A stretch of 64,000 nucleotides of DNA from Nitrososphaeria archaeon (GTDB lineage: Archaea > Thermoproteota > Nitrososphaeria > Nitrososphaerales > JAAOZN01), in assembly GCA_029775855.1 (NCBI GenBank), contig JARVJZ010000002.1:224001-288000 (forward strand), in the 5' to 3' direction. Position numbers and translations under genes: made by a program. Positions 15,937-50,008 of the stretch are shown one piece after another. Each line of letters opens with the position of its first letter. The first letter of the stretch is position 1. The notes beneath the pieces are model-generated. The model saw nothing but the letters and a program-made list of their open reading frames with translations, ran no database searches and had not been told where the DNA came from.

Positions 15937-16958
15937 GCATTATTCTGCAGATAAAAGACCTTAAAAAATACTTTCCTATTACAAAAGGTGTGATCTTAAA
16001 GAAGACTTTAGGTTATGTTAAGGCTGTCGATGGTGTCAGCTTCTCTATCGAGCGAGGGGAAACATTTGGTTTAGTAGGAGAAAGCGGTTCAGGAAAAAGC
16101 ACGATTGGTAGACTAATAGTCGGATTATTGCAGCCAACATCAGGAAGCATATTCTTTGACAAAGTAGACTTGACCAAGATAAATAAAAAAGAGTTTCAAA
16201 ATATCAGAAGAAGGATGAGTATGATCTTTCAAGATCCCTTTACATCTCTAGATCCACGCAAAAATGTTATGCAGATTATAGCTGAACCTTTAATCATACA
16301 TACTGATATGGAAAGGAAAAAAAGGGAGGAGATTGTTTATCAACTTTTAGAGCGAGTGGGGCTACGCCAAGAAGACGCATTCAAGTACCCTCATCAATTT
16401 AGCGGAGGGCAGAGGCAAAGAATAGCAATCGCAAGAGCTTTAACCCTATCACCAGATTTAATTATAGCAGATGAGGCTGTCTCAGCGCTTGACGTTTCTG
16501 TTCAAGCCAAGATCATTAACATTCTTATGAGTCTGCAAAAAGATCTAAACCTAACCTACTTATTCATAGCACACGATCTAAGCGTTGTATGTCATATCTC
16601 ACATAAAGTAGGTGTAATGTATCTAGGTAAACTTGTCGAAGTAGGCAGCAAATCAGCCATCTTCCAAGACCCGTTACACCCATATACACAAGCTCTACTT
16701 GAAGCAGTTCCAGTGCCAGACCCAAACATCATGGTGGCAAAGGGCTTGATGGTGTTGAAAGGGGAAATCCCCTCGCCTATAAATCCACCTTCAGGCTGCA
16801 GATTCCACCCAAGATGCCCATATGCAACAAAGAGATGCACCGAAGAGGAGCCAACCTTAATTGATAACGGTGAAAATCATTTAGCGGCTTGCCATTATAC
16901 AGACGAAATTAAATCAAAGCGAAAGATCATAAAGCAACCTCTAAAAGATTCAGCTTAG
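15921..16958 (+). CDS. dppF: Peptide ABC transporter ATPase, DppF-like
   Basis: GESGSGKS, FSGGQRQRIAIARAL and PSPINPPSGCRFHPRC motifs. Confidence 0.93.
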   Translation: MEKRLSIILQIKDLKKYFPITKGVILKKTLGYVKAVDGVSFSIERGETFGLVGESGSGKSTIGRLIVGLLQPTSGSIFFDKVDLTKINKKEFQNIRRRMSMIFQDPFTSLDPRKNVMQIIAEPLIIHTDMERKKREEIVYQLLERVGLRQEDAFKYPHQFSGGQRQRIAIARALTLSPDLIIADEAVSALDVSVQAKIINILMSLQKDLNLTYLFIAHDLSVVCHISHKVGVMYLGKLVEVGSKSAIFQDPLHPYTQALLEAVPVPDPNIMVAKGLMVLKGEIPSPINPPSGCRFHPRCPYATKRCTEEEPTLIDNGENHLAACHYTDEIKSKRKIIKQPLKDSA

Positions 16959-42333: not shown

Positions 42334-45300
42334 TTATTCAGAGTTTATGTAATCGAGAAGATCGGATTGTATGTAGTTGTGTTTGGTGCCAAAGAGGTCT
42401 TCTAACTCCTTGATTAATATATTGAATCGCATCTTCAAGTACTCTTCGACATCAAATTTATTAAGCATCTTTGCTGCTATATCAACATACTTTTCGATAG
42501 AGTTTTGACTTACTGTAGATAAGAGCGAATCGCCACAGATTAGACAAGAACCTCTTAAGGGTATACGCCGAAAACTTTCGCCACATCTTCTGCACCTAAA
42601 TTTTTGAGTGGTGTATGCGTTTAAGTTTCCTTGAATATCTCGTAGTATGTGAGTTTTAAGTACTGAAGCGATCACAGTAGATGGGTCTACGGCTTTAATT
42701 AAGGTGGCTAACTCAACTTGCTTCTCTAGCTTTTCGACTATGCTTTTAAGAGTAGAGTATGAACTTCTAGCTCTTTTTATAACAAGGTGTTGTGTACTAT
42801 GAGTAAATTGAAAACCTTCGTACTGCTCTTTTTTATTTAACCTATTTTTTACGATATCTATTATATTCGCAATAGCTTGAGGCATTTCTCTTCTAAGTGT
42901 AGCTTCGTAAAACGCTAGTGGATATTGCGCTGCGCAATCAAAGTTATGAGCTTGTCTTTGAATCTCTCGAGGCAGTATTATAGGTTGTAGAAGTAAAGGT
43001 GCATCCATTAACCCACCGATTTGCTCTGGTAGAAACTCTTTTGAGAAGTTTATAAGTAGATCAAGTAAAAGCATTATGCTGTCTCCGTCTCCATCACAAT
43101 CACGCCTCTTTGCAGAATGCCAAAATGGGTGAGCGTAGCAGACTTGCGTTTTAGTAAAACCTATTACTCTACCTAGAACCCCAACAGAGGTATGAGGGGC
43201 GAGTCCAACAATTAAGCATCCTATAAGATCCTCTTTATCTTTAAAGTTATAGACTGGGTTTAATCCATATAGTTTGATAAGCATTTCATCAACAAATTTT
43301 GATACAGATAATAGATGATCCGCAGCGTCTATAGGTATAACAACATCTTGCACAAATAGTTCTAATATCTGCTCACCATCCTCAAGAGGGCGCCCGTGAA
43401 TATCAGTTGCATACCCAAGCTCCTTTAACTTTTCGACTGAAGCGCCTATTTGATTAGGTTTAAAGTGCGTTAATGAAGCGTTTGTCGCATCGAACCGAAT
43501 TGTACCATCTTTATACACAGATAGATTATACTTCTGCCTGAGAATACCTTTCCTTATGTCTTCTGGAACTCTTGTAAAGTTCATAAGCGATTTAACACCC
43601 TTTAAAGGCGAGTTTGCTTTACACATAAGACTCTCTTCTGCTCTCTTTAACTCTTCTTTAATAGGGTAGGCTGTAGTTTTGTAAGGCACACCACTTAACC
43701 TACAGATTGGACACACTTCACCTTGGAAGAAGCGTCCACAATTAGGGCAGGTTCTAATAATCTTAACAGCAACACCACATACTCGGCAAAGTGCTGAAAG
43801 TGATGGTTGACCACAGTTTTCACATACAGCATTTATCAGTTCTATATACAGAGTATCTTTACTCGCAGCTTCAACTATATCCCTTTTAGTTCCTCCTTGC
43901 TCGCCAACGGGAAACAGTACATGAACAGGGGGTTTCATCTTTCTCATAATAGCCTTCTCCGGTCTACCTACTCTAACGCCCACAAACCATGAAGACTTTT
44001 GCCTAATTTTAACACCTGCACATTTAGATAGAAAGGATAGTGTGTCTTCCCAGCCTGTAAGATCTATCTGCTTATCTAACCTTAAAGTACGCTTAAGCGC
44101 TTCGGCGTCTTCACCCTTGACCACCCAACCTTTCTCACTAAATTCATGAGGAACTCCAAGGGTCTCTAGAATTTGCTTTACTTCTTTGTCTTCTAATTTA
44201 AAATAACAAGATTCGTCATCAAAATTTAATGCGCTTCTCAGTTTAAAAACATCTTTAAGTTGAATAAGGTCCCAAAAATACAAATACTTTGGGTGGAGAG
44301 GTATGTCGAGTTGCTCACTAAGCTTAAAAGCAGTCTTACAAGTTATTCTCGTTTCTAAAGGCTTATTTATAAGTGCGTTTAGAAACTGCTCATCTAATCC
44401 AATCATTCTACTGCATTCAGAAATTTTCCCAAACCTTTCCATAATTTGCTTCTTTAACTCCTGAGCCCACCACTCCTCAACATAACAAGAAGGGATTAAA
44501 CGCGCATTGTTTTCCAAAAAGTCGCCGAAGCTTATCAATATGTCACCAAGATAAAGAATGGAGCGGAGGCTACTTCTAATTTGATTAGCAGACTCAACAC
44601 TCTCAACTCTAACAACAGAGCCATCGTTAAGTTTCACTATAGGAGGCTCTAACTGATCCACAAAAGCTACAGTAGCAGCCTTACCAGGCACATCCAGCTT
44701 AACTTGAGTCCCTACAACTACTGCATAATCTACTAATACTGGAACTGCAGGATGCATACCTACTACAGAGAAACCTGTGTTGTAGCATCGGCCATACCTA
44801 AGCCTGAATCCTCCAACTTTATTGGGGAATGAAAGGGCAGGTCTACCAGCTATTATTTCGTGGAAGTGTGAGGATTCTGCTCGGGATTCTTCAACATCGC
44901 GTTGTACACCACCCTTCAACTTACTTAACCAATCCCATCCTGGTATAGCTAGCGTATTGACTAATTTGGCTAGCTTCCTTCCACGCCCTATGATGCCGTC
45001 GTTAAGTACTCTAAGTGCACCGCCTCTGACTCTATCTGTTTCTATGCGTCTCATTCCACGATGTACAACGACTTCAACTGGATCGGTTTCAACGCCGTTA
45101 ATTTCAACAGGTAGATTGCTGATCGCTAATTGTATATCTTCATCACTAACTTTGAACTGAAAGTTTCCAACTTCACGCTCATATATTCTAAGCTCCTCTA
45201 TAAATCGCCCTACTTCATCCTCGCCCCAACAGTTGCATCTATAGCGATCTAAACCAAGCTTTATCCTTAACCTGTCAGCTAAAACAACAGTAAATGCAGC

Positions 45301-45795
45301 TTCAGTGCCGCCAGCTGAACGAATGGGGCCTGCGAAGTAAATTGAAGCATAGTTTGATCCATCTTCATTCTTTTTTATCTTCACCGAAGAGATCCCCTGT
45401 AAGGGTGCTACAGTCACACCCTCTGTAACAACGGCTAAGCCTACTCTAACACCCCAATCTAACGCCTCTTCTTTCTCAAAAAATCCAAATTTACCTAGAG
45501 CAACCTCTTCAGCCAAAATAAGCGCAGCTCTATCACTACTACCTTCTGACTCAAGCAGTTCCCTAAGCCTCTCACTAACCTTAATTCCTAAAAGAAGTTC
45601 AACGCGATCCGCTAAGTCATAAGCCAAAATAGACTCGACAGAAGTTGAAGGATCAAACCCTTTTGCTCTAGCCTTTAAAGCCACTTCATTTAGCTTCTTA
45701 AATTCAATTAACAACTGCTCCTGAAATTTCTTTTGCCTATCAGACATGGCGCCTCTAACATATTCTTTATTGAGCACATCTTCTTGTGACATCAT
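42334..45795 (-). CDS. polC: DNA polymerase D large subunit DP2 (no intein evident)
   Basis: AGPIRSAGGT, RVGRPEKA, KDGTIRFD, GLAPHTS, HSAKRRDCDGDGD, Zn fingers and a C-terminal PIP box QSDLLDYI. Confidence 0.97.
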   Translation of the reverse strand: MMSQEDVLNKEYVRGAMSDRQKKFQEQLLIEFKKLNEVALKARAKGFDPSTSVESILAYDLADRVELLLGIKVSERLRELLESEGSSDRAALILAEEVALGKFGFFEKEEALDWGVRVGLAVVTEGVTVAPLQGISSVKIKKNEDGSNYASIYFAGPIRSAGGTEAAFTVVLADRLRIKLGLDRYRCNCWGEDEVGRFIEELRIYEREVGNFQFKVSDEDIQLAISNLPVEINGVETDPVEVVVHRGMRRIETDRVRGGALRVLNDGIIGRGRKLAKLVNTLAIPGWDWLSKLKGGVQRDVEESRAESSHFHEIIAGRPALSFPNKVGGFRLRYGRCYNTGFSVVGMHPAVPVLVDYAVVVGTQVKLDVPGKAATVAFVDQLEPPIVKLNDGSVVRVESVESANQIRSSLRSILYLGDILISFGDFLENNARLIPSCYVEEWWAQELKKQIMERFGKISECSRMIGLDEQFLNALINKPLETRITCKTAFKLSEQLDIPLHPKYLYFWDLIQLKDVFKLRSALNFDDESCYFKLEDKEVKQILETLGVPHEFSEKGWVVKGEDAEALKRTLRLDKQIDLTGWEDTLSFLSKCAGVKIRQKSSWFVGVRVGRPEKAIMRKMKPPVHVLFPVGEQGGTKRDIVEAASKDTLYIELINAVCENCGQPSLSALCRVCGVAVKIIRTCPNCGRFFQGEVCPICRLSGVPYKTTAYPIKEELKRAEESLMCKANSPLKGVKSLMNFTRVPEDIRKGILRQKYNLSVYKDGTIRFDATNASLTHFKPNQIGASVEKLKELGYATDIHGRPLEDGEQILELFVQDVVIPIDAADHLLSVSKFVDEMLIKLYGLNPVYNFKDKEDLIGCLIVGLAPHTSVGVLGRVIGFTKTQVCYAHPFWHSAKRRDCDGDGDSIMLLLDLLINFSKEFLPEQIGGLMDAPLLLQPIILPREIQRQAHNFDCAAQYPLAFYEATLRREMPQAIANIIDIVKNRLNKKEQYEGFQFTHSTQHLVIKRARSSYSTLKSIVEKLEKQVELATLIKAVDPSTVIASVLKTHILRDIQGNLNAYTTQKFRCRRCGESFRRIPLRGSCLICGDSLLSTVSQNSIEKYVDIAAKMLNKFDVEEYLKMRFNILIKELEDLFGTKHNYIQSDLLDYINSE

Positions 45796-45806
45796 GTGAT
45801 ATCACA
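45795..45806. repeat. Palindrome TGTGATATCACA, copy 1
   Basis: Perfect 12-bp palindrome overlapping the GGGPS stop and DP2 start; a degenerate copy TGTGACATCA is adjacent at 45785-45794. Confidence 0.92.
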
Positions 45807-46563
45807 ATGCCTTAGCAGATTCGGCAGCGTTCACAATTTTGCTTAAAAGTTTCCTACCATCCTTTGACTCAAGCAGAGTGCCAATAACTAAGATATCGGC
45901 TCCGCATTTAACTAACTCTTCAGCAATTTCAGGCTTTGTTATTCCACCGCCAACGATTAGTACGCCGTCGTAGACTTTTCTAACAGCTTGAACCATTTGT
46001 GATGATACATGTGATATCACACCTGAACCAGCTTCAAGATATAGAAAGCGCATACCCAAATATTGACTAGCTAAAGCGTACATGGCTGCTATTTCTGGCT
46101 TTGAATTCGGAATACCTCTAGCTTTACCTATAAACCCAGCTGCGCCTCCTTCGCCAACTATAAGATAAGCCATCGGAATAGCTTCTAATCCGTACTTTTT
46201 AACTAGTAACGCGCCTAAAGCTTGAGCTTCGGTTATAAAGTAGGTATTCTCAGAGTTCAGGAGCGAGCTAAATAAAATAGCATCTGCACTAGGCACGACA
46301 CTATTAACATTACTTGGAAAGATTATAACAGGCTTTGCTACAGCTTTCTTTATCGCTCTTACGACCTTATCTAATTCTAGCTGATCCATTGCTGTAGAGC
46401 CGCCTACAAGTATCGCAGCCACGCCAGCTTTGTCTGCTTCCTTAGCCATCTTAGCAGCTTCTTGTTCGGTAAGACCTTCTGAGTCTATTAATCCGAAGCA
46501 GATAGCACCTCTCTTCTTAATTTCGTTTTTAATAAGTTGCTCAACACTATACTTATTGGTCAC
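45802..46563 (-). CDS. Geranylgeranylglyceryl phosphate synthase
   Basis: ILVGGS, ADAILFSSLLNS, LYLEAGSG and VGGGI motifs. Confidence 0.93.
   Translation of the reverse strand: MTNKYSVEQLIKNEIKKRGAICFGLIDSEGLTEQEAAKMAKEADKAGVAAILVGGSTAMDQLELDKVVRAIKKAVAKPVIIFPSNVNSVVPSADAILFSSLLNSENTYFITEAQALGALLVKKYGLEAIPMAYLIVGEGGAAGFIGKARGIPNSKPEIAAMYALASQYLGMRFLYLEAGSGVISHVSSQMVQAVRKVYDGVLIVGGGITKPEIAEELVKCGADILVIGTLLESKDGRKLLSKIVNAAESAKAL
46010..46021. repeat. Palindrome TGTGATATCACA, copy 2
   Basis: Perfect copy inside the GGGPS coding sequence; half-site TGTGAT just upstream at about 45998. Confidence 0.92.
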
Positions 46564-46798
46564 TTTTGATCTTCCCCGCCATAAATTGATCTACAAATTC
46601 GTTGTAGATGTCTATTACTTCTTTTCGCCCAGTAAATTCATAGTCGCGCGTTAGCCTACAGTTCCCGCAGGAGATTAAAGCAAGGTGTTCACCTTTGAGT
46701 TTAACCCTGACGCCTGATACTCCACAGTTTGGGCAGGTAAATACTTTAGGCAGAGTTCTTCTTACTACCCTAATCACTTTTCTTCTTCGTCTACCCAA
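46553..46798 (-). CDS. elf1: Transcription elongation factor Elf1-like
   Basis: (M)GRRRRK...LPKVFTCPNCG...CGNC...IDIYNEFVD; likely start TTG 46798. Confidence 0.9.
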   Translation of the reverse strand: MGRRRRKVIRVVRRTLPKVFTCPNCGVSGVRVKLKGEHLALISCGNCRLTRDYEFTGRKEVIDIYNEFVDQFMAGKIKSDQ

Positions 46799-46865
46799 GT
46801 TGACCACTTAGTATAGGGCTTGCTATTTAAAAAGGTCACTTTTCCACTTGCAAACCATATCAATA

Positions 46866-46892
46866 AATATGTTTTGGTTAACGAAACATATT
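46866..46892. promoter_or_regulatory. Inverted repeat, candidate operator in a divergent promoter region
   Basis: AATATGTTT-tggttaacg-AAACATATT (9-bp perfect arms) between elf1 (-) and ORF 46965 (+). Confidence 0.5.
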
Positions 46893-46964
46893 ATTTCAGC
46901 AGTTTTCCTAAATGGAAAGGGGATGAGGAAAAAGAATAATTATACCATTCTGTATTAATGGGTT

Positions 46965-47366
46965 GTGCTTAAAATAATGCAACAAGAAAATAAGCTACTA
47001 CTCAGCCTAATTGAAGGTTCTACTCTCACAAATGCCCAAGTAGACACATTACTATGTGAAATAGAAGGTAAAGGTGCAGCAAAACAATTGAGAGAAAGGG
47101 CTGCCATGAGAGACAAAGAAAACATTACACTAGGCGCTTACTCAAGAACAAGAAAACAAGCATACATGAGAATCAGGAAGGTTCTAAAAACAGTACTTTT
47201 ACTATCGTATTTGGGCATCTTTTCACAAGACGGATTAAACACATTAGTAAAAGCAGCAGAATTAATAAGCAGAGTCAAAACAGCTAATCTAACTGATGAA
47301 GACATAATAAAATTAAACAAACTTATAGACGAAACATTAAGCAATCTAATTGTGATATCACAGTAA
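46965..47366 (+). CDS. Hypothetical origin-adjacent helical protein, possible HTH
   Basis: STLTNAQVDTL...RERAAMR...ITLGAYSRTRKQAYMRIRK resembles an HTH-type arrangement. Confidence 0.72.
   Translation: MLKIMQQENKLLLSLIEGSTLTNAQVDTLLCEIEGKGAAKQLRERAAMRDKENITLGAYSRTRKQAYMRIRKVLKTVLLLSYLGIFSQDGLNTLVKAAELISRVKTANLTDEDIIKLNKLIDETLSNLIVISQ
47351..47362. repeat. Palindrome TGTGATATCACA, copy 3
   Basis: Perfect copy in the last codons of ORF 46965-47366; two ATCACA half-sites follow at 47382-47394. Confidence 0.92.
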
Positions 47367-47396
47367 AGGTCATATACAAGCATCACATATCACAAA

Positions 47397-47930
47397 ATGA
47401 TGTTAGAACTAATAATAGCAAGCATAGCTTTACTATTAGCTATCGTCGCCCTATTTATCAACATAAAACGAAACCACAAGCAAAATAACGCAAACTATGA
47501 TGTGGTCTTGGCCCTTTCCGAGGAATATTCGCGAAGAATGAATAAGTTGGAAACTAGACTGGTTGATCTTCAAGTTAGATTGGATATTATAGAAACTAGG
47601 ATAGAGAAACCCACTCTTCATAGTGATGTAGAAGAAGTAAAGAAGATTAAAGGTTTCAATAATGTGATATCACAAAAGCCGCAAATTGATATCACAAAGT
47701 TTTCCAAGGGATTAAGTGAGTTTGAGTTGGCAGTACTTAGATGTGTTGCTGAAGGTGCGAAGACACCGAGTGAGGTTAAGGCTGTTGTTGGACATACCAG
47801 AGAGCATGTTGCTAGAGCGCTTAAAGATCTTTATGAGGAAGGTTTTCTTTTTAGGCAGGGTGGTAGACCATTTATTTATTCATTGTCTGATAAGGGTAGA
47901 GCTGTTCTTAGTGGGGATTCTCGTGCTTAA
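47397..47930 (+). CDS. Membrane-anchored coiled-coil/winged-helix protein
   Basis: N-terminal TM (LIIASIALLLAIVALFI), heptad region (MNKLETRLVDLQVRLDIIETRI), C-terminal wHTH (LSEFELAVL...TPSEVKAVVGHTREHVARALKDLYEEGFL...PFIYSLS). Confidence 0.8.
   Translation: MMLELIIASIALLLAIVALFINIKRNHKQNNANYDVVLALSEEYSRRMNKLETRLVDLQVRLDIIETRIEKPTLHSDVEEVKKIKGFNNVISQKPQIDITKFSKGLSEFELAVLRCVAEGAKTPSEVKAVVGHTREHVARALKDLYEEGFLFRQGGRPFIYSLSDKGRAVLSGDSRA
47663..47696. repeat. Palindrome TGTGATATCACA, copy 4 (47663-47674), plus a 10/12 copy (47685-47696)
   Basis: Both lie inside ORF 47397-47930, with starts 22 bp apart. Confidence 0.92.
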
Positions 47931-48305
47931 TGTGGTCTTTCTGTAAATATATCCTGTTCCTATTCTTACTCTTTTTAGCATTCTTTGGTCGACTAATCTG
48001 TTTAGGTAGGTGGATAATGTTGTGAGCTTTATAGGTTGTTGATATTTGCTTTCGTAGGCTTCTTGTAAGTTTGCTGTTGTGAAGTTAGAGGCTGGAAATT
48101 CTTCATCTATTAATGCGCATACTTTTGAGAAGATTGTGTCTACTTCAGTTTTTTCCTCTTCCCTTTCGCCGCCTAGAAACTCATATACTTCTATCAATTT
48201 ATGCATCTTCTCTTTCGATAGAGGGCCTTCTATTGTAAGAGAATATTTACTACCCTCCTCGTCTGTAAATTCAATCTTCATCCTTTTTGGCATATTTTGC
48301 CACAA
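47880..48305 (-). CDS. Hypothetical protein with C-terminal winged helix, divergent from cdc6 across the origin
   Basis: N-terminal beta-rich segment RMKIEFTDEEGSKYSLTIEG; wHTH FTTANLQEAYE...IKLTTLSTYLNRLVDQRMLKR...YIY. The start may be ATG 48293. Confidence 0.78.
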   Translation of the reverse strand: MWQNMPKRMKIEFTDEEGSKYSLTIEGPLSKEKMHKLIEVYEFLGGEREEEKTEVDTIFSKVCALIDEEFPASNFTTANLQEAYESKYQQPIKLTTLSTYLNRLVDQRMLKRVRIGTGYIYRKTTLSTRIPTKNSSTLIRQ

Positions 48306-48464
48306 TAAGATATCAAGTTCAACTTATACATTGAAGGTGTGAAAAAGTGAACAAGTTTGTCAAACCATCATTTACTGAGCCAAATGTAATGTTATTAACT
48401 ACTCTATTACATTATTCACTATTTTACAATTATCAAACTTTTCGCTAACAATCAAGAATATGAT

Positions 48465-48485
48465 TTGCAGTGGAAATGGAGGGGT
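48465..48485 (+). promoter_or_regulatory. ORB element 1
   Basis: TTGCAGTGGAAATGGAGGGGT versus the ORB consensus TTCCAGTGGAAAC-AAAGGGG. Confidence 0.8.
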
Positions 48486-48528
48486 GTGCCAAAACACCTT
48501 TTAACTATTAAATAGGGCATATTTTTGG

Positions 48529-48549
48529 CTCCAGTGGAAATAAAGGGGT
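48529..48549 (+). promoter_or_regulatory. ORB element 2
   Basis: CTCCAGTGGAAATAAAGGGGT, a near-consensus ORB with G-string. Confidence 0.9.
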
Positions 48550-48601
48550 GCCTGTGAACGGTAAGTGCAAGTATATTCACAAATACTAGATAAGAAGGGG
48601 T

Positions 48602-48622
48602 ACCCCTTTGTTTCAGCTGGAG
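48602..48622 (-). promoter_or_regulatory. ORB element 3 (inverted)
   Basis: Reverse complement is CTCCAGCTGAAACAAAGGGGT, facing ORB2. Confidence 0.88.
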
Positions 48623-48790: not shown

Positions 48791-50008
48791 GTGCGGCTAA
48801 ACTTGGGTAGTGAAGCAGATCAAAAAAAGATAATTAACTCAATATTTACCAAAGCAGCTGAAGGGTCAAGAATAATAAAGGATGCTGAACCCTTAAGACC
48901 TGATTATGTGCCACCTAAACTTCTTTTCAGAGATGAACAAATTACTGCTGTAGCTCAAATCGTTGCACCTATTCTTAGGAAGCAGCGCTGCTCTAATGTG
49001 CTACTTTACGGTAAAACAGGTACTGGGAAGACTGCTACGGCTCGTCTGGTTCTTAATGAGCTTAGGTTGAAGGCTCAAGAGTTTAAGATTCCTGTTTGTT
49101 TATGTTACACTAATTGTAGACTTGCTGGGACTGAGTACAGGGTTGTTCTAGATCTTGCGGAAAGTGTTGGTGTTAAGATACCCTTCACAGGTTTATCCTT
49201 AGGTGAAGCGTATAGTAGGGTTGCTGCTCAAATATCAGATAATAACTTAAATTTTCTAGTAGTTTTGGATGAGATTGATTATTTGGCTAAAAATTCAACA
49301 GGTAACCTTCTCTATGAGTTAACACGCTCACATGAGAAGTTAACCCCTGGTGGTATATCGTTAATCGGGATCTCCAATGATCTTCGTTTTAAGGAGATGC
49401 TTGATCCGCGTGTTTTGAGCAGTTTAGGTGAAGAAGAGATGGTTTTTCCACCTTATTCAGTCGAAGAGCTTAGACTAATTTTAAAGGAGCGTGTTAAGCT
49501 AGCTTTCAATGATGGCTGTATAACTGAGGGTGCAGTAAACTTATGTGCAGCATTAGCCGGTTCTGAACACGGTGATGCAAGAAGAGCTGTCGATTTACTT
49601 AGGGTGTCTGCTGAAGTCGCTGAGCGTGAAGGAAAGGCTAGGGTAGAAGAACATCATATTAAGATTGCTCTGCAGAAGATGGAGCAAGACCGATTGATAG
49701 AAGCTTTAAGAGTTTTACCGCTTCAAGCTAAGTTGATTCTCTTATCAGTCATAAAATCAGAAGACTCCTCCTCTACAGGCTCTATTTACCAAACATACCT
49801 TAGATTAAGTTCTAGAGTTGGTGTTGAAACACTCACTGCAAGAAGGGTGAGCGGTATACTTTCCGAATTAGATATGCAGGGTTTAATTTCGGCTAATGTT
49901 TTAAGCAAGGGTAGGTATGGTAGATCTAAACGGGTCTCTTTACTTGTATCTAAGCATCTTGTTCTAGATGTTTTAACTCAAGATCCGATTATTGCTGCTG
50001 TAATTTAG
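48791..50008 (+). CDS. cdc6: Orc1/Cdc6 replication initiator
   Basis: LRPDYVP, YGKTGTGKT, VLDEID, GISND, HGDARRAVDLLR and C-terminal wHTH ELDMQGLI...GRYGRS. Confidence 0.97.
   Translation: MRLNLGSEADQKKIINSIFTKAAEGSRIIKDAEPLRPDYVPPKLLFRDEQITAVAQIVAPILRKQRCSNVLLYGKTGTGKTATARLVLNELRLKAQEFKIPVCLCYTNCRLAGTEYRVVLDLAESVGVKIPFTGLSLGEAYSRVAAQISDNNLNFLVVLDEIDYLAKNSTGNLLYELTRSHEKLTPGGISLIGISNDLRFKEMLDPRVLSSLGEEEMVFPPYSVEELRLILKERVKLAFNDGCITEGAVNLCAALAGSEHGDARRAVDLLRVSAEVAEREGKARVEEHHIKIALQKMEQDRLIEALRVLPLQAKLILLSVIKSEDSSSTGSIYQTYLRLSSRVGVETLTARRVSGILSELDMQGLISANVLSKGRYGRSKRVSLLVSKHLVLDVLTQDPIIAAVI

What the first reader, a model, noticed from the sequence alone, without database searches (positions are those of the whole stretch)
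45785..48305. Origin-flanking TGTGATATCACA palindrome array with three uncharacterised DNA-binding genes: candidate archaeal origin-tethering or segregation system
Seen: four perfect copies of the 12-bp palindrome TGTGATATCACA (45795, 46010, 47351, 47663), a 10/12 copy (47685), a degenerate copy (45785) and extra half-sites (about 45998, 47382, 47389). All lie within about 1.9 kb, ending about 0.8 kb from the ORBs. By eye I found no perfect copy elsewhere in the 64 kb. A given 12-mer is expected far less than once per window by chance. The sites sit inside or across coding sequence (GGGPS, the DP2 start, ORFs 46965 and 47397) and often come in closely spaced pairs. That pattern resembles centromere-like sites (bacterial parS, Bacillus ram sites bound by RacA) more than promoter operators. 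Three genes of unknown function with HTH/wHTH-like features lie within or beside the array, and no ParA/ParB or SegA/SegB gene is in the window. Inference: one of them binds the palindrome and organises, anchors or regulates the origin region.
Basis: partly seen in the sequence, partly recalled or inferred. Interest (0 to 1): 0.88.

Follow-up and report, generated by a model that had tools for sequence, protein, structure and literature searches.

The report
Conserved palindrome array beside archaeal origin
A 12-base DNA palindrome found nowhere else in this hot-spring archaeon's genome is repeated beside its replication origin, partly inside genes, and has been kept there by selection across many related families, so it is very likely a docking site for one of three neighbouring DNA-binding proteins, one of them membrane-anchored.

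Summary
TGTGATATCACA occurs four times in the window. These are the only four copies in the 1.5-Mb genome (about 0.1 expected). Each perfect copy has a degenerate partner 10-37 bp away. All four positions are kept in the 3 of 3 same-genus genomes.

In 151 genomes of the order, 38 of 76 TGTGAYRTCACA sites lie in this one locus; the other 38 roughly match a control pattern's 28. The copy inside GGGPS fixes its Val and Ser codons (GTG and TCA, 13 of 13). None of 70 comparable codon columns is fixed.

The three neighbouring genes are core and syntenic with Cdc6 and the ORBs across the class. They are a Tfx/sigma-r4-like HTH (o133), a membrane-anchored coiled-coil wHTH (o177) and a wHTH with a beta N-domain (o141).

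What binds the sites, and what the complex does, is inferred. My best reading (0.4) is an origin-flank nucleoprotein complex that autoregulates o177 and may anchor origin DNA to the membrane. A purely local operator or roadblock role is nearly as likely (0.33). Two ParB-like genes exist elsewhere in the genome but do not track the motif. I rate it a new variant of a known kind, interest 0.7.

The parts
45785..45806 (.). Site 1 pair: degenerate TGTGACATCA (45785-45794) abutting perfect TGTGATATCACA (45795-45806). It spans the GGGPS stop codon (TGA, 45802-45804, minus strand) and the first base of the DP2 start codon.
   Evidence: Invariant in all 4 genus genomes, and one of only three places in 2.6 kb with a fully invariant 12-mer. 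One-mismatch copies sit at the same junction in f6 and f7 loci. A perfect copy sits at the Elf1/DP2 junction in another order (L158).
45998..46021 (.). Site 2 tandem: TGTGATGATACA (3 mismatches) followed directly by perfect TGTGATATCACA (46010-46021). It lies inside GGGPS, about 540 nt from the gene's start, and encodes G-V-I-S-H-V-S-S-Q.
   Evidence: The tandem 12+12 arrangement is kept in the genus; G003 has two perfect TGTGACATCACA copies. The same codon position carries the motif in families f1, f2 (1 mismatch), f6, f11, f12, f19 and f20, with fixed GTG and TCA codons.
47351..47362 (.). Site 3: perfect palindrome at the last codons of o133 (…I V I S Q, stop at 47364-47366). It lies immediately upstream of a BRE/TATA-like element.
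   Evidence: Positions 47350-47376 (palindrome plus GTAAAGGTCATATA) are invariant in all 4 genus genomes.
47363..47377 (+). BRE/TATA-like element GTAAAGG-TCATATAC, about 25 nt upstream of the o177 ATG. Inferred promoter of a leaderless o177 mRNA.
   Evidence: Sequence; invariant in the genus. The promoter function is an inference, not tested.
47382..47394 (.). Half-site repeat ATCACATATCACA between the TATA-like element and the o177 ATG (47397).
   Evidence: largely conserved in the genus.
47663..47696 (.). Site 4 pair: perfect palindrome (47663-47674) plus ATTGATATCACA (47685-47696), 22 bp start to start. It lies inside o177, in the linker between the coiled coil and the wHTH.
   Evidence: The pair is kept in G002 and G003 with Y/R variants, and partly in G001. 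One-mismatch copies lie inside or next to the o177 gene in f19 loci.
46965..47366 (+). o133: 133-aa all-helical protein. Residues 18-88 form a sigma70-region-4/LuxR/Tfx(EnfR)-like HTH; a C-terminal helical hairpin follows. No Pfam family.
   Evidence: No Pfam match. AF2 model pLDDT 91.5. VIA-align: 7vim Z 6.4; 8hno (EnfR) Z 6.2, rmsd 1.4 A over 52 residues; sigma-r4 chains Z 5.2-5.9. An HMM finds it at the same position in 40 of 43 loci of the order and in 16 of 20 loci of other orders; one of those 16, L165 (E about 1e-3), is marginal and probably not a true homologue.
47397..47930 (+). o177: N-terminal hydrophobic anchor (residues 5-23), coiled-coil-like stretch, variable linker, C-terminal wHTH with the recognition helix (S/T)REH(T/V)(A/S)R.
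   Evidence: Pfam HTH_27 23.1 bits (over its cut-off); TrmB and HVO_A0261_N below their cut-offs. 34 of 36 homologues have a 19-residue window with Kyte-Doolittle mean >=1.6 near the N-terminus. Invariant R135, E136, R140, R153, P158, Y161.
47880..48293 (-). o141: beta-hairpin plus helix N-domain and a C-terminal wHTH. Divergent from Cdc6 across the ORBs. Its 3' end overlaps the 3' end of o177 by 51 nt.
   Evidence: Pfam Penicillinase_R 23.7 bits (cut-off 22.6). NCBIfam CopY 21.3 bits, far below its cut-off. AF2 pLDDT 77.9. Foldseek wHTH matches (F93, Fur, ArsR, TubR, MecI; E about 4e-3 to 3e-2). One clear match per genome in most genomes: 116 of 151 genomes of the order and 80 of 81 high-quality genomes of the class.
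46941..46956 (.). Second, different palindrome TATACC-ATTC-TGTATT (order consensus TATACA-N4-TGTATA), just upstream of the o133 start.
   Evidence: Present at this position in 62 of 62 full-length Nitrosopumilaceae loci.
48468..48622 (.). Three ORB elements (48468-48486 and 48529-48552 forward; 48599-48622 inverted): the predicted oriC between o141 and cdc6.
   Evidence: The ORB core TTCCA-N-TGGAA recurs at the same place in related loci.
48791..50008 (+). Cdc6/Orc1 initiator gene.
   Evidence: Pfam Cdc6_C, Cdc6_lid and AAA families.
42334..46807 (-). Elf1 (46553-46807), GGGPS (45802-46563) and PolD DP2 (42334-45795): tightly packed co-directional genes that carry sites 1 and 2.
   Evidence: Pfam. 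The synteny is conserved order-wide and class-wide.

Best explanation
The palindromes (consensus TGTGA-YR-TCACA, usually paired with a weaker copy one to three helical turns away) are high-affinity binding sites for a dimeric helix-turn-helix protein encoded in the same locus. My ranking of the binder is o133 > o177 > o141. Occupied at four paired positions over 1.9 kb on one flank of oriC, the sites would build one genome-unique nucleoprotein complex. Two consequences follow. First, autoregulation: site 3 and the adjacent half-sites bracket the inferred o177 promoter. Second, marking and organising origin-proximal DNA: the N-terminal membrane anchor and coiled coil of o177 offer a way to hold this DNA at the membrane, that is, a centromere-like or origin-tether function without a dedicated ParA. 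Shown: the sites are real, unique, under nucleotide-level selection inside coding sequence, tied to this locus in 8 of 20 families of the order, and flanked by three conserved proteins with DNA-binding folds, one of them membrane-anchored. Inferred: which protein binds, that a higher-order complex forms, that o177 is transcribed from its own promoter, and any role in anchoring or segregation.
For: Uniqueness: 4 of 4 genome copies lie in the array, with about 0.1 expected. Genus conservation: all four positions are kept in 3 of 3 genus genomes, although o133 and o177 are only 47-59% identical in protein. In a 2.6-kb genus alignment with 50% invariant columns, fully invariant 12-mers occur only at site 1, at site 3 with its promoter, and at the Elf1/GGGPS overlap. 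Order level: 76 TGTGAYRTCACA sites occur in 151 genomes, and 38 of them are in this locus (15 of 17 in f1; 23 of 59 elsewhere, about 0.5 expected). The remaining 38 compare with 28 for the reversed control pattern. DNA-level selection: in 13 GGGPS genes of 7 families, Val is GTG 13 of 13, Ser is TCA 13 of 13 and Gly is GGT 11 of 13. Of 70 other conserved codon columns with >=4-fold degeneracy, 0 are fixed (mean top-codon share 0.50). In the genus, GGGPS carries a tandem motif that encodes a repeated tetrapeptide. Candidate binders: the o133 HTH fold, the o177 wHTH with a membrane anchor in 34 of 36 homologues, and the o141 wHTH. All three are core genes syntenic with Cdc6 and the ORBs. Mid-gene sites far from any start codon argue for more than promoter control: site 2 is about 215 bp upstream of the DP2 ATG, and in each f12 genome with a match it is the only match, 8 of 10 genomes.
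Against: No binding data exist. Site 3 has textbook operator geometry, and sites 1 and 3 sit at gene junctions, so simple regulation could explain much of the pattern. The recognition helices of o177 and o141 are nearly invariant in families that lack the palindrome (f4, f10, f13, f15: 0 in-locus sites in 9, 24, 24 and 23 genomes). So these two proteins either read something else or tolerate loss of the full site. The o133 subtype tracks the motif, but only as one clade-level change, so that is not independent evidence. Positional conservation may simply be inheritance. The codon test used families chosen because they have the motif, so it is partly circular. No motor ATPase is linked to the locus. 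Population variants in hot-spring runs gave no power: 0 of 22 variable positions fall in the 95 motif nucleotides, with 0.8 expected.
Confidence: 0.4

Rival explanations
1. Purely local gene regulation. A locus-encoded repressor or activator binds the palindromes to autoregulate o133 and o177. By road-blocking or looping between the paired sites, it also tunes read-through from Elf1-GGGPS into the PolD DP2 gene. It has no chromosome-organising role.
For: Site 3 lies directly upstream of an invariant BRE/TATA-like element, and half-sites lie between that element and the o177 ATG. Site 1 sits on the GGGPS-stop/DP2-start junction, and comparable junction sites occur in f6, f7 and f24. In G008 a copy overlaps the 3' end of DP2. 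A target set restricted to the regulator's own neighbourhood is typical of dedicated regulators. o133 resembles Tfx/EnfR, a characterised archaeal operon repressor (PMC10570040, passages read).
Against: The most widely conserved site (site 2) is mid-gene, about 215 bp from the next start codon, with no evident promoter nearby. Eight binding units for two operons is many. The membrane anchor of o177, which has no evident sensor domain, is unexplained. The class-wide linkage of the trio to Cdc6 and the ORBs suggests a tie to replication.
Confidence: 0.33
2. Control of replication initiation. The bound array, through membrane-anchored o177, sequesters or licenses the adjacent origin, or titrates an initiation factor, once per cell cycle. 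It would be functionally like SeqA/membrane sequestration or datA in bacteria.
For: The array ends 0.8 kb from the ORBs. The trio is syntenic with Cdc6, DP1 and DP2 across the class. o141 is divergently placed from cdc6 across the ORBs. o177 has a membrane anchor.
Against: No site lies in the ORB-containing intergenic region itself. Families that lack the full palindrome still keep the origin and all three genes. There are no data on replication.
Confidence: 0.12
3. The sites are bound by a factor encoded elsewhere, for example one of the two ParB_N+HTH_ParB proteins (G000 C6:140485-141369; C2:211967-213067), as a divergent parS.
For: Bona fide ParB_N plus HTH_ParB domain pairs exist in the genome. 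One lies on the same contig, about 57 kb from the array. The distribution of the palindrome resembles that of parS.
Against: HTH_ParB genes are patchy and multi-copy in the order (116 of 151 genomes, up to 8 matches per genome). They were not found in the motif-bearing f12 genomes G014, G028 and G047 (90-96% complete). They are common in f10 and f15, which lack the motif. The 12-mer does not resemble the 16-bp parS (the parS consensus is recalled, not from a call). No ParA-like gene lies next to either ParB-like gene or the array; the AAA_31 hits are a CooC-like pair and one distant gene.
Confidence: 0.08
4. Not a protein-binding element: a chance recurrence, a by-product of a shared peptide (V-I-S-Q/H), or an RNA-level signal.
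For: Sites 2, 3 and 4 are read in the same frame, T|GTG|ATA|TCA|CA. An incidental copy arises from the peptide G-V-M-S-H in the uS8 gene of G002 and G003.
Against: One of the three frames is closed by TGA, so a shared frame is weak evidence. Site 1 is in another frame and spans a stop and a start codon, and the 47685 copy uses the third frame. The synonymous positions are fixed, whereas the uS8 copy is not kept in G000, which has GTT there. A 5-bp stem with a 2-nt loop cannot form a stable RNA hairpin (established RNA-folding rules). Genome uniqueness and the locus restriction across 8 families rule out chance.
Confidence: 0.03

Closest known systems
Bacterial parS/ParB (ParABS) centromeres
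   Same: A short perfect palindrome with a handful of copies per genome. Copies are clustered near oriC, often inside coding sequence (including the binder's own gene), and conserved across taxa. The DNA-binding gene is encoded near the origin.
   Different: 12 bp rather than 16 bp. None of the three local proteins has the ParB_N or HTH_ParB domain. No ParA partner is at the locus. The genome's ParB-like genes do not co-vary with the motif. Nothing is known about spreading or CTPase activity.
Bacillus subtilis RacA/ram sites with DivIVA (recalled, not from a call)
   Same: Inverted-repeat sites concentrated around the origin, bound by an HTH plus coiled-coil protein that fastens the origin region to the cell envelope. 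This is the nearest functional analogue of the tether reading.
   Different: RacA is soluble and docks on DivIVA, whereas o177 has its own N-terminal transmembrane segment. ram sites are spread over hundreds of kb; here the sites span 1.9 kb. No sequence relationship was tested.
Archaeal segregation systems: SegAB of Sulfolobus and AspA-ParB-ParA of pNOB8 (review PMC7617429, passages read; details of AspA recalled)
   Same: A site-specific small DNA-binding protein recognises palindromic sites near its own genes and nucleates a higher-order complex.
   Different: Both of those systems depend on a ParA-type ATPase encoded alongside; none is at this locus. SegB homology was not tested. This trio is specific to the class Nitrososphaeria.
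Tfx family / EnfR (TON_1525; PDB 8hno; PMC10570040)
   Same: The N-terminal sigma-r4-like HTH and long 'stem' helix of o133 superpose on EnfR residues 4-55 (Z 6.2, rmsd 1.4 A, 25% identity). EnfR is a dimer that binds a pseudo-palindrome at an operon promoter.
   Different: No sequence-family match. The o133 C-terminus is a helical hairpin, not the alpha+beta 'note-head'. EnfR's site is 36 bp, not 12 bp.
BlaI/MecI/CopY (Penicillinase_R) wHTH repressors
   Same: The o141 wHTH scores just over the Pfam cut-off (23.7 against 22.6 bits). These repressors read short palindromes with a 2-bp spacer (TACAnnTGTA; recalled, not from a call).
   Different: Only residues 75-135 match. The CopY NCBIfam score is far below its cut-off (21.3 against 122). 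o141 has a different N-terminal beta-domain and lacks their C-terminal dimerisation or sensor part.

Membership tests
ParABS (parS/ParB/ParA) | The centromere-binding protein has ParB_N (CTPase) and HTH_ParB domains. | tested here: not met
   Pfam scan of o133, o177 and o141: no ParB_N or HTH_ParB match. Such proteins exist only outside the window.
ParABS (parS/ParB/ParA) | A ParA-type Walker ATPase is encoded with the binder. | tested here: not met
   The AAA_31 hits in G000 are at C4:83245, C4:84042 and C2:323840, none in the window. The C4 pair sits in a CooC-like context.
ParABS (parS/ParB/ParA) | Few palindromic sites, clustered near oriC and otherwise absent from the genome. | tested here: met
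   4 of 4 genome copies lie 0.8-2.7 kb from the ORBs.
ParABS (parS/ParB/ParA) | Presence of the sites co-varies with presence of ParB. | tested here: not met
   HTH_ParB was not found in the motif-bearing genomes G014, G028 and G047, yet is present in 21 of 24 f10 and 21 of 23 f15 genomes, which lack in-locus sites.
SegAB (archaeal) | A SegA (ParA-like) gene adjacent to a SegB gene, with SegB sites nearby. | tested here: not met
   No AAA_31/ParA-like gene in the window. SegB sequence homology of the three proteins was not tested.
Tfx / EnfR family (for o133) | A sigma70-r4-like HTH followed by a long stem helix. | tested here: met
   VIA-align 8hno_A: Z 6.2, rmsd 1.4 A over 52 residues. Several sigma-r4 and LuxR-type chains score Z 5.2-6.4 over model residues 7-88. 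These Z values are middling for helical models.
Tfx / EnfR family (for o133) | [quoted passage not shown] | tested here: not met
   No Pfam or NCBIfam family. The model's C-terminus is a helical hairpin.
Penicillinase_R (BlaI/MecI/CopY) (for o141) | A full-length match, including the C-terminal dimerisation region. | tested here: not met
   Pfam matches profile positions 18-76 of 115 only. CopY_TcrY scores 21.3 bits against a cut-off of 121.95.
Sequence-specific protein-binding site under selection (generic cis-element) | Conservation exceeds that of neighbouring synonymous sites and persists across diverged genomes. | tested here: met
   The caveat on how the families were chosen is stated in the report.
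Sequence-specific protein-binding site under selection (generic cis-element) | Demonstrated binding by a named protein. | not testable with these tools
   No protein-DNA modelling or binding assay is available here.

The most novel reading that the evidence does not exclude
Nitrososphaeria carry a ParA-independent, three-protein origin-anchoring system conserved across the class. A Tfx-like HTH (o133) reads TGTGA-YR-TCACA centromere-like sites embedded in genes beside oriC. A single-pass membrane protein with a coiled coil and a wHTH (o177) fastens this complex to the cell membrane. A third wHTH protein (o141), facing cdc6 across the ORBs, couples it to initiation. This would be the first described chromosome-membrane tether or centromere of this archaeal lineage.
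Probability: 0.22. Interest if true: 0.9.

Novelty: new variant of a known kind. Interest (0 to 1): 0.7.

Why it matters
How archaea that divide with the Cdv system position and separate their chromosomes is largely unknown. [quoted passage not shown]

This locus offers a concrete, testable handle. It has a genome-unique cis-element with clear nucleotide-level selection. It has three small core proteins of the Nitrososphaeria, a class that includes the globally abundant ammonia oxidisers, always sitting next to cdc6 and oriC. One of these proteins is membrane-anchored.

Even if the function proves to be only regulation, it would define the first conserved operator and regulator set that controls the replicative-polymerase gene cluster in this lineage. 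It would also assign a role to three widespread 'hypothetical' gene families.

The 12-mer was found in no paper of the searchable library. Four topical searches found nothing on this locus.

Tried and rejected
1. Chance or R-M avoidance: rejected. GATATC is not avoided and the half-sites are not enriched genome-wide.

2. Shared-peptide artefact: rejected.

3. ParB-like binder: disfavoured by phyletic pattern.

4. ParA/SegA partner: the AAA_31 hits are a CooC-like pair at C4 and one gene 52 kb away. SegB was not searched.

5. Phyletic profiling to pick the binder: failed. With an HMM, o133 is present in every family in which an intact locus was examined (40 of 43 loci), as are o177 and o141. 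The two o133 subtypes track the motif, but outgroup orders carry type A, so this is one clade-level change.

6. Complex prediction of o177 (residues 28-177) with o133: no answer. It counts neither for nor against binding.

7. Foldseek of both models against the PDB: no hit at E<=0.001. The o133 fold assignment rests on VIA-align Z values of 5-6.4, which are middling.

8. De novo palindrome search in families without the motif: found only the different TATACA-N4-TGTATA element and the ORB cores.

9. The 10-mer TGTGATATCA in five complete Nitrosopumilaceae genomes: dispersed (4-18 copies per genome). Only 2 of 5 genomes have a copy in the locus, so the array as such is not shown for that family.

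10. Sequencing runs: no RNA holder listed. Contigs of X2, X5, X7 and X8 gave 22 variable positions, none in the 95 motif nucleotides (0.8 expected), so there is no statistical power. Gaps in contig cover near sites 2 and 4 prove nothing.

11. AmoA search in G000: no hit, but the control genomes were silent too, so this is uninformative.

13. Literature: no paper holds the 12-mer, and the topical searches found nothing on this locus. For PMC10570040 and PMC7617429 I read passages only. Other papers were seen only as search listings. Supplements were closed.

14. Genome G107 is flagged unpublished. It is one of the 151 genomes in the tallies, and no specific claim rests on it.

Full report
**The observation.** TGTGATATCACA occurs at 45795, 46010, 47351 and 47663. 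None of 100 dinucleotide-preserving shuffles of the window gave a single copy. With up to two mismatches the window gains only 47685 (ATTGATATCACA) near the array, plus two unrelated hits at 16590 and 50634.

I laid the whole assembly (1,507,471 bp, 6 contigs; the window is C2:224001-288000). The four copies are the only perfect ones in the genome. There are three one-mismatch copies elsewhere and 61 two-mismatch copies. From base composition about 0.1 copies are expected. GATATC is not avoided (368 against 456 expected), and the half-site TGTGAT is not enriched genome-wide (777 against 907), so neither restriction avoidance nor composition explains the pattern.

Each perfect copy has a weaker companion:
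- TGTGACATCA abuts site 1.
- TGTGATGATACA abuts site 2, giving a 12+12 tandem.
- ATCACATATCACA lies 31 bp after the start of site 3.
- ATTGATATCACA lies 22 bp after the start of site 4.

Three ORBs lie at 48468-48622, between o141 and cdc6. The array therefore occupies one flank of the predicted origin, 0.8-2.7 kb away.

**The genes.** Pfam identifies SHMT, PolD DP2, GGGPS (PcrB), Elf1, Cdc6 and PolD DP1. Site 1 covers the GGGPS stop codon and the first base of the DP2 ATG. Site 2 is inside GGGPS. Site 3 lies in the last codons of o133. Site 4 is in the linker of o177.

o133 has no sequence family. Its AF2 model is confident (pLDDT 91.5). Residues 18-88 align with LuxR-type, sigma-70 region 4 and Tfx-type HTH domains: 7vim Z 6.4; EnfR 8hno Z 6.2, rmsd 1.4 A over 52 residues; sigma-r4 chains Z 5.2-5.9. 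These Z values are middling, but the matches are consistent in kind. EnfR is a dimeric archaeal repressor that binds a pseudo-palindrome (PMC10570040, passages read).

o177 has four parts: an N-terminal hydrophobic segment, a coiled-coil-like stretch, a variable linker and a C-terminal wHTH. The hydrophobic segment is present in 34 of 36 homologues.

o141 has a beta-hairpin N-domain and a C-terminal wHTH (pLDDT 77.9). Foldseek gives generic wHTH matches. Pfam Penicillinase_R scores just above its cut-off.

**Conservation of the array.** All 3 of 3 same-genus genomes carry clustered copies. After fetching the loci I found all four positions occupied in each genome, with Y/R variants at the two central bases (TGTGACATCACA, TGTGATGTCACA). 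Yet o133 and o177 are only 47-59% identical in protein. In a four-genome alignment of 2.6 kb, half of all columns are invariant. Fully invariant 12-mers start only at site 1, at the Elf1/GGGPS overlap, and across site 3 plus the following GTAAAGGTCATATA.

Across 151 genomes of the order, TGTGAYRTCACA occurs 76 times, in 49 genomes. I compared these positions with those of the o141 gene and with fetched loci:
- 15 of 17 sites in the genus lie in the locus.
- 23 of 59 sites in other families lie in the locus; one site, in G099, could not be located.
- A 12-kb neighbourhood would catch about 0.5 of 59 by chance.
- The 38 sites outside the locus compare with 28 for the tool's reversed control pattern.

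So the whole excess is at this locus. Families with at least one in-locus perfect site are f1, f5, f6, f9, f11, f12, f19 and f20. No in-locus site was found in the sampled f4 (9 genomes), f10 (24), f13 (24) or f15 (23). Outside f13 and f15, 23 of 32 sites are in the locus. The two extra sites in G002 and G003 lie in the uS8 gene (peptide GVMSH). They are not kept in G000, which has GTT there. That is what an incidental copy looks like.

**Selection at the DNA level.** In GGGPS the motif sits in a variable loop after the conserved YLEAGSG. Families f1, f2, f6, f11, f12, f19 and f20 encode G-V-(I/T)-S-H with the codons GGT GTG AYR TCA CAY. Families f4, f7, f9, f10, f13 and f15 have other residues and no motif.

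Among the 13 genes of the seven families, Val is GTG in 13 of 13, Ser is TCA in 13 of 13 and Gly is GGT in 11 of 13. By contrast, 0 of 70 other conserved codon columns with at least four-fold degeneracy are fixed (mean top-codon share 0.50). The families were chosen because they carry the motif, so the test is partly circular. The non-circular point is that a 12-nt string has survived at one codon position across lineages whose other synonymous sites are saturated. In the genus the loop even encodes a repeated tetrapeptide (VTSH-VTSQ in G003) that accommodates two adjacent motifs.

One reading frame of the motif is closed by TGA. The shared frame of sites 2-4 is therefore weak evidence for a peptide-level cause. 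Site 1 and the 47685 copy use other frames.

**The gene trio is a core, origin-linked module.** The order DP1-Cdc6-ORB-o141-o177-o133-Elf1-GGGPS-DP2-SHMT recurs through 43 loci from 17 families of the order. o141 is present, mostly as one clear match per genome, in 116 of 151 genomes (91 of 103 high-quality genomes). An HMM finds o133 in 40 of 43 loci; the three misses are rearranged loci.

At class level the o141 profile hits 106 of 121 genomes (80 of 81 high-quality). In 15 of 20 loci from other orders, Cdc6, o141 and DP2 are again neighbours. One of these loci (L158) has a perfect motif at the Elf1/DP2 junction. Record titles identify f13 as Nitrosopumilaceae, so the class is the Nitrososphaeria. 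The stretch itself is held by hot-spring metagenome runs.

**Which protein binds?** This could not be settled. All three genes are ubiquitous, so presence/absence profiling fails.

The recognition helices of o177 ((S/T)REH(T/V)(A/S)R) and o141 (LS-x-(I/V)-STYL-x-R) are nearly invariant, even in families without the palindrome. This suggests targets that are invariant too. One candidate is the second palindrome, TATACA-N4-TGTATA, which sits just upstream of o133 throughout the order and in 62 of 62 Nitrosopumilaceae loci.

o133 is the variable protein and comes in two subtypes:
- Type A has an insertion and the motif G-x-F-(L/I)-R-T-L-K-Q-A.
- Type B has a deletion and the motif GAYYR.

The GGGPS site occurs only with type A. 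But outgroup orders are also type A, so this is a single clade-level change and not independent evidence.

Type B genes keep a GTG Val codon in 17 of 17 cases at one position of o133. In 84 distinct Nitrosopumilaceae genes, two Val codons are GTG in 83 of 83, while other Val codons vary. This hints that TGTGAT half-sites inside o133 persist in ammonia oxidisers. However, the 10-mer is dispersed in their genomes. On this basis I rank the candidates o133 > o177 > o141 > a factor encoded elsewhere, with low confidence.

**Function.** Two readings are close. For regulation: site 3 lies directly upstream of an invariant BRE/TATA-like element about 25 nt before the o177 ATG, with half-sites between that element and the ATG. 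Sites 1 and 3 sit at gene junctions. For a structural, centromere-like or tethering role:
- Sites 2 and 4 are mid-gene and far from any start codon. Site 2 is the most widely conserved, and it is the only match in each f12 genome that has one (8 of 10).
- There are about eight binding units in pairs.
- The genome has no other target.
- The locus is welded to oriC across a class.
- o177 is a DNA-binding protein with a bare membrane anchor and no evident sensor domain.

The two readings are compatible, since centromere-binding proteins commonly autoregulate (established knowledge of plasmid partition systems). I put 0.40 on an origin-flank nucleoprotein complex with an organising or anchoring role plus autoregulation. 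I put 0.33 on regulation only, 0.12 on initiation control, 0.08 on a distant binder such as ParB, and 0.03 on a non-protein or chance explanation.

**ParB check.** The genome has two genes with ParB_N plus HTH_ParB domains, both outside the window. Across the order such genes are patchy and multi-copy. They were not found in three motif-bearing f12 genomes, and they are common in families that lack the motif.

**Novelty.** No paper in the searchable library holds the 12-mer. Searches on thaumarchaeal origins, segregation, origin-associated proteins and transcription-factor motifs found nothing on this locus. Atlas clusters for o133 and o177 are named 'hypothetical' or generic wHTH. The element works like known origin-proximal binding-site arrays (parS, ram) but uses unrelated proteins. 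I therefore file it as a new variant of a known kind.

Noticed in passing
window 46941-46956; L012-L054; L055-L134: A second, different palindrome (TATACA-N4-TGTATA; the window has TATACC-ATTC-TGTATT) sits just upstream of the o133 start. It is seen in families f1, f6, f12, f13 and f15, and in 62 of 62 full-length Nitrosopumilaceae loci. It is probably the promoter or operator of the o133-o177 operon, and a candidate target for the invariant recognition helices of o177 or o141.
   Followed up: partly
G000 C6:140485-141369 (L169:1485-2369) and C2:211967-213067 (L170:1467-2567): Two genes with ParB_N plus HTH_ParB domains. The second has a SnoaL-like C-terminus, and the first follows a TrmB-type regulator gene. 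Such genes are patchy and multi-copy in the order, with up to 8 matches per genome.
   Followed up: partly
o133 genes of Nitrosopumilaceae (L033-L038, L053-L134): In 84 distinct o133 genes, two Val codons are GTG in 83 of 83 and one Ser codon is AGT in 76 of 76, while other Val codons vary. The fixed codons spell TGTGATATCA-like and GTGATA…AGTGAT strings. Half-sites may therefore persist inside o133 in ammonia oxidisers.
   Followed up: partly
o133 homologues, L012-L054 and L149-L167: o133 has two subtypes. Type A has a roughly 12-residue insertion and G-x-F-(L/I)-R-T-L-K-Q-A, and occurs in f1, f2, f6, f7, f11, f12, f14, f19 and f20; the o133 homologues of other orders also carry the insertion. 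Type B has the deletion and GAYYR, and occurs in f4, f9, f13 and f15, with f10 intermediate.
   Followed up: partly
window 47880-47930: The convergent genes o177 and o141 overlap by 51 nt at their 3' ends. The C-terminal tail of o141 is conserved in G003.
   Followed up: no
G002:C119:1739 and G003:C107:33340; G000 C5 about 96,490: The only out-of-locus motif copies in the genus lie in the ribosomal protein uS8 gene (peptide GVMSH). G000 has GTT there instead of GTG. This is an incidental coding-driven copy and a useful negative control.
   Followed up: yes
L018 14124 (G008:C7:35705): In family f6 a perfect copy lies at the 3' end of DP2, at about its stop codon (position judged from gene length). 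This resembles site 1, where the motif's TGA serves as the GGGPS stop.
   Followed up: no
G000 C4:81003-84818: Two adjacent CooC/MinD-like P-loop ATPase genes lie downstream of a 623-aa ORF. They are the best AAA_31 hits in the genome and are unrelated to the array.
   Followed up: partly
window 45700-48400 in runs X1-X7: Near-identical DNA is held by hot-spring metagenome runs from three studies. Contigs of X2, X5 and X7 lie on it at 99% identity or more, with 22 variable positions.
   Followed up: partly
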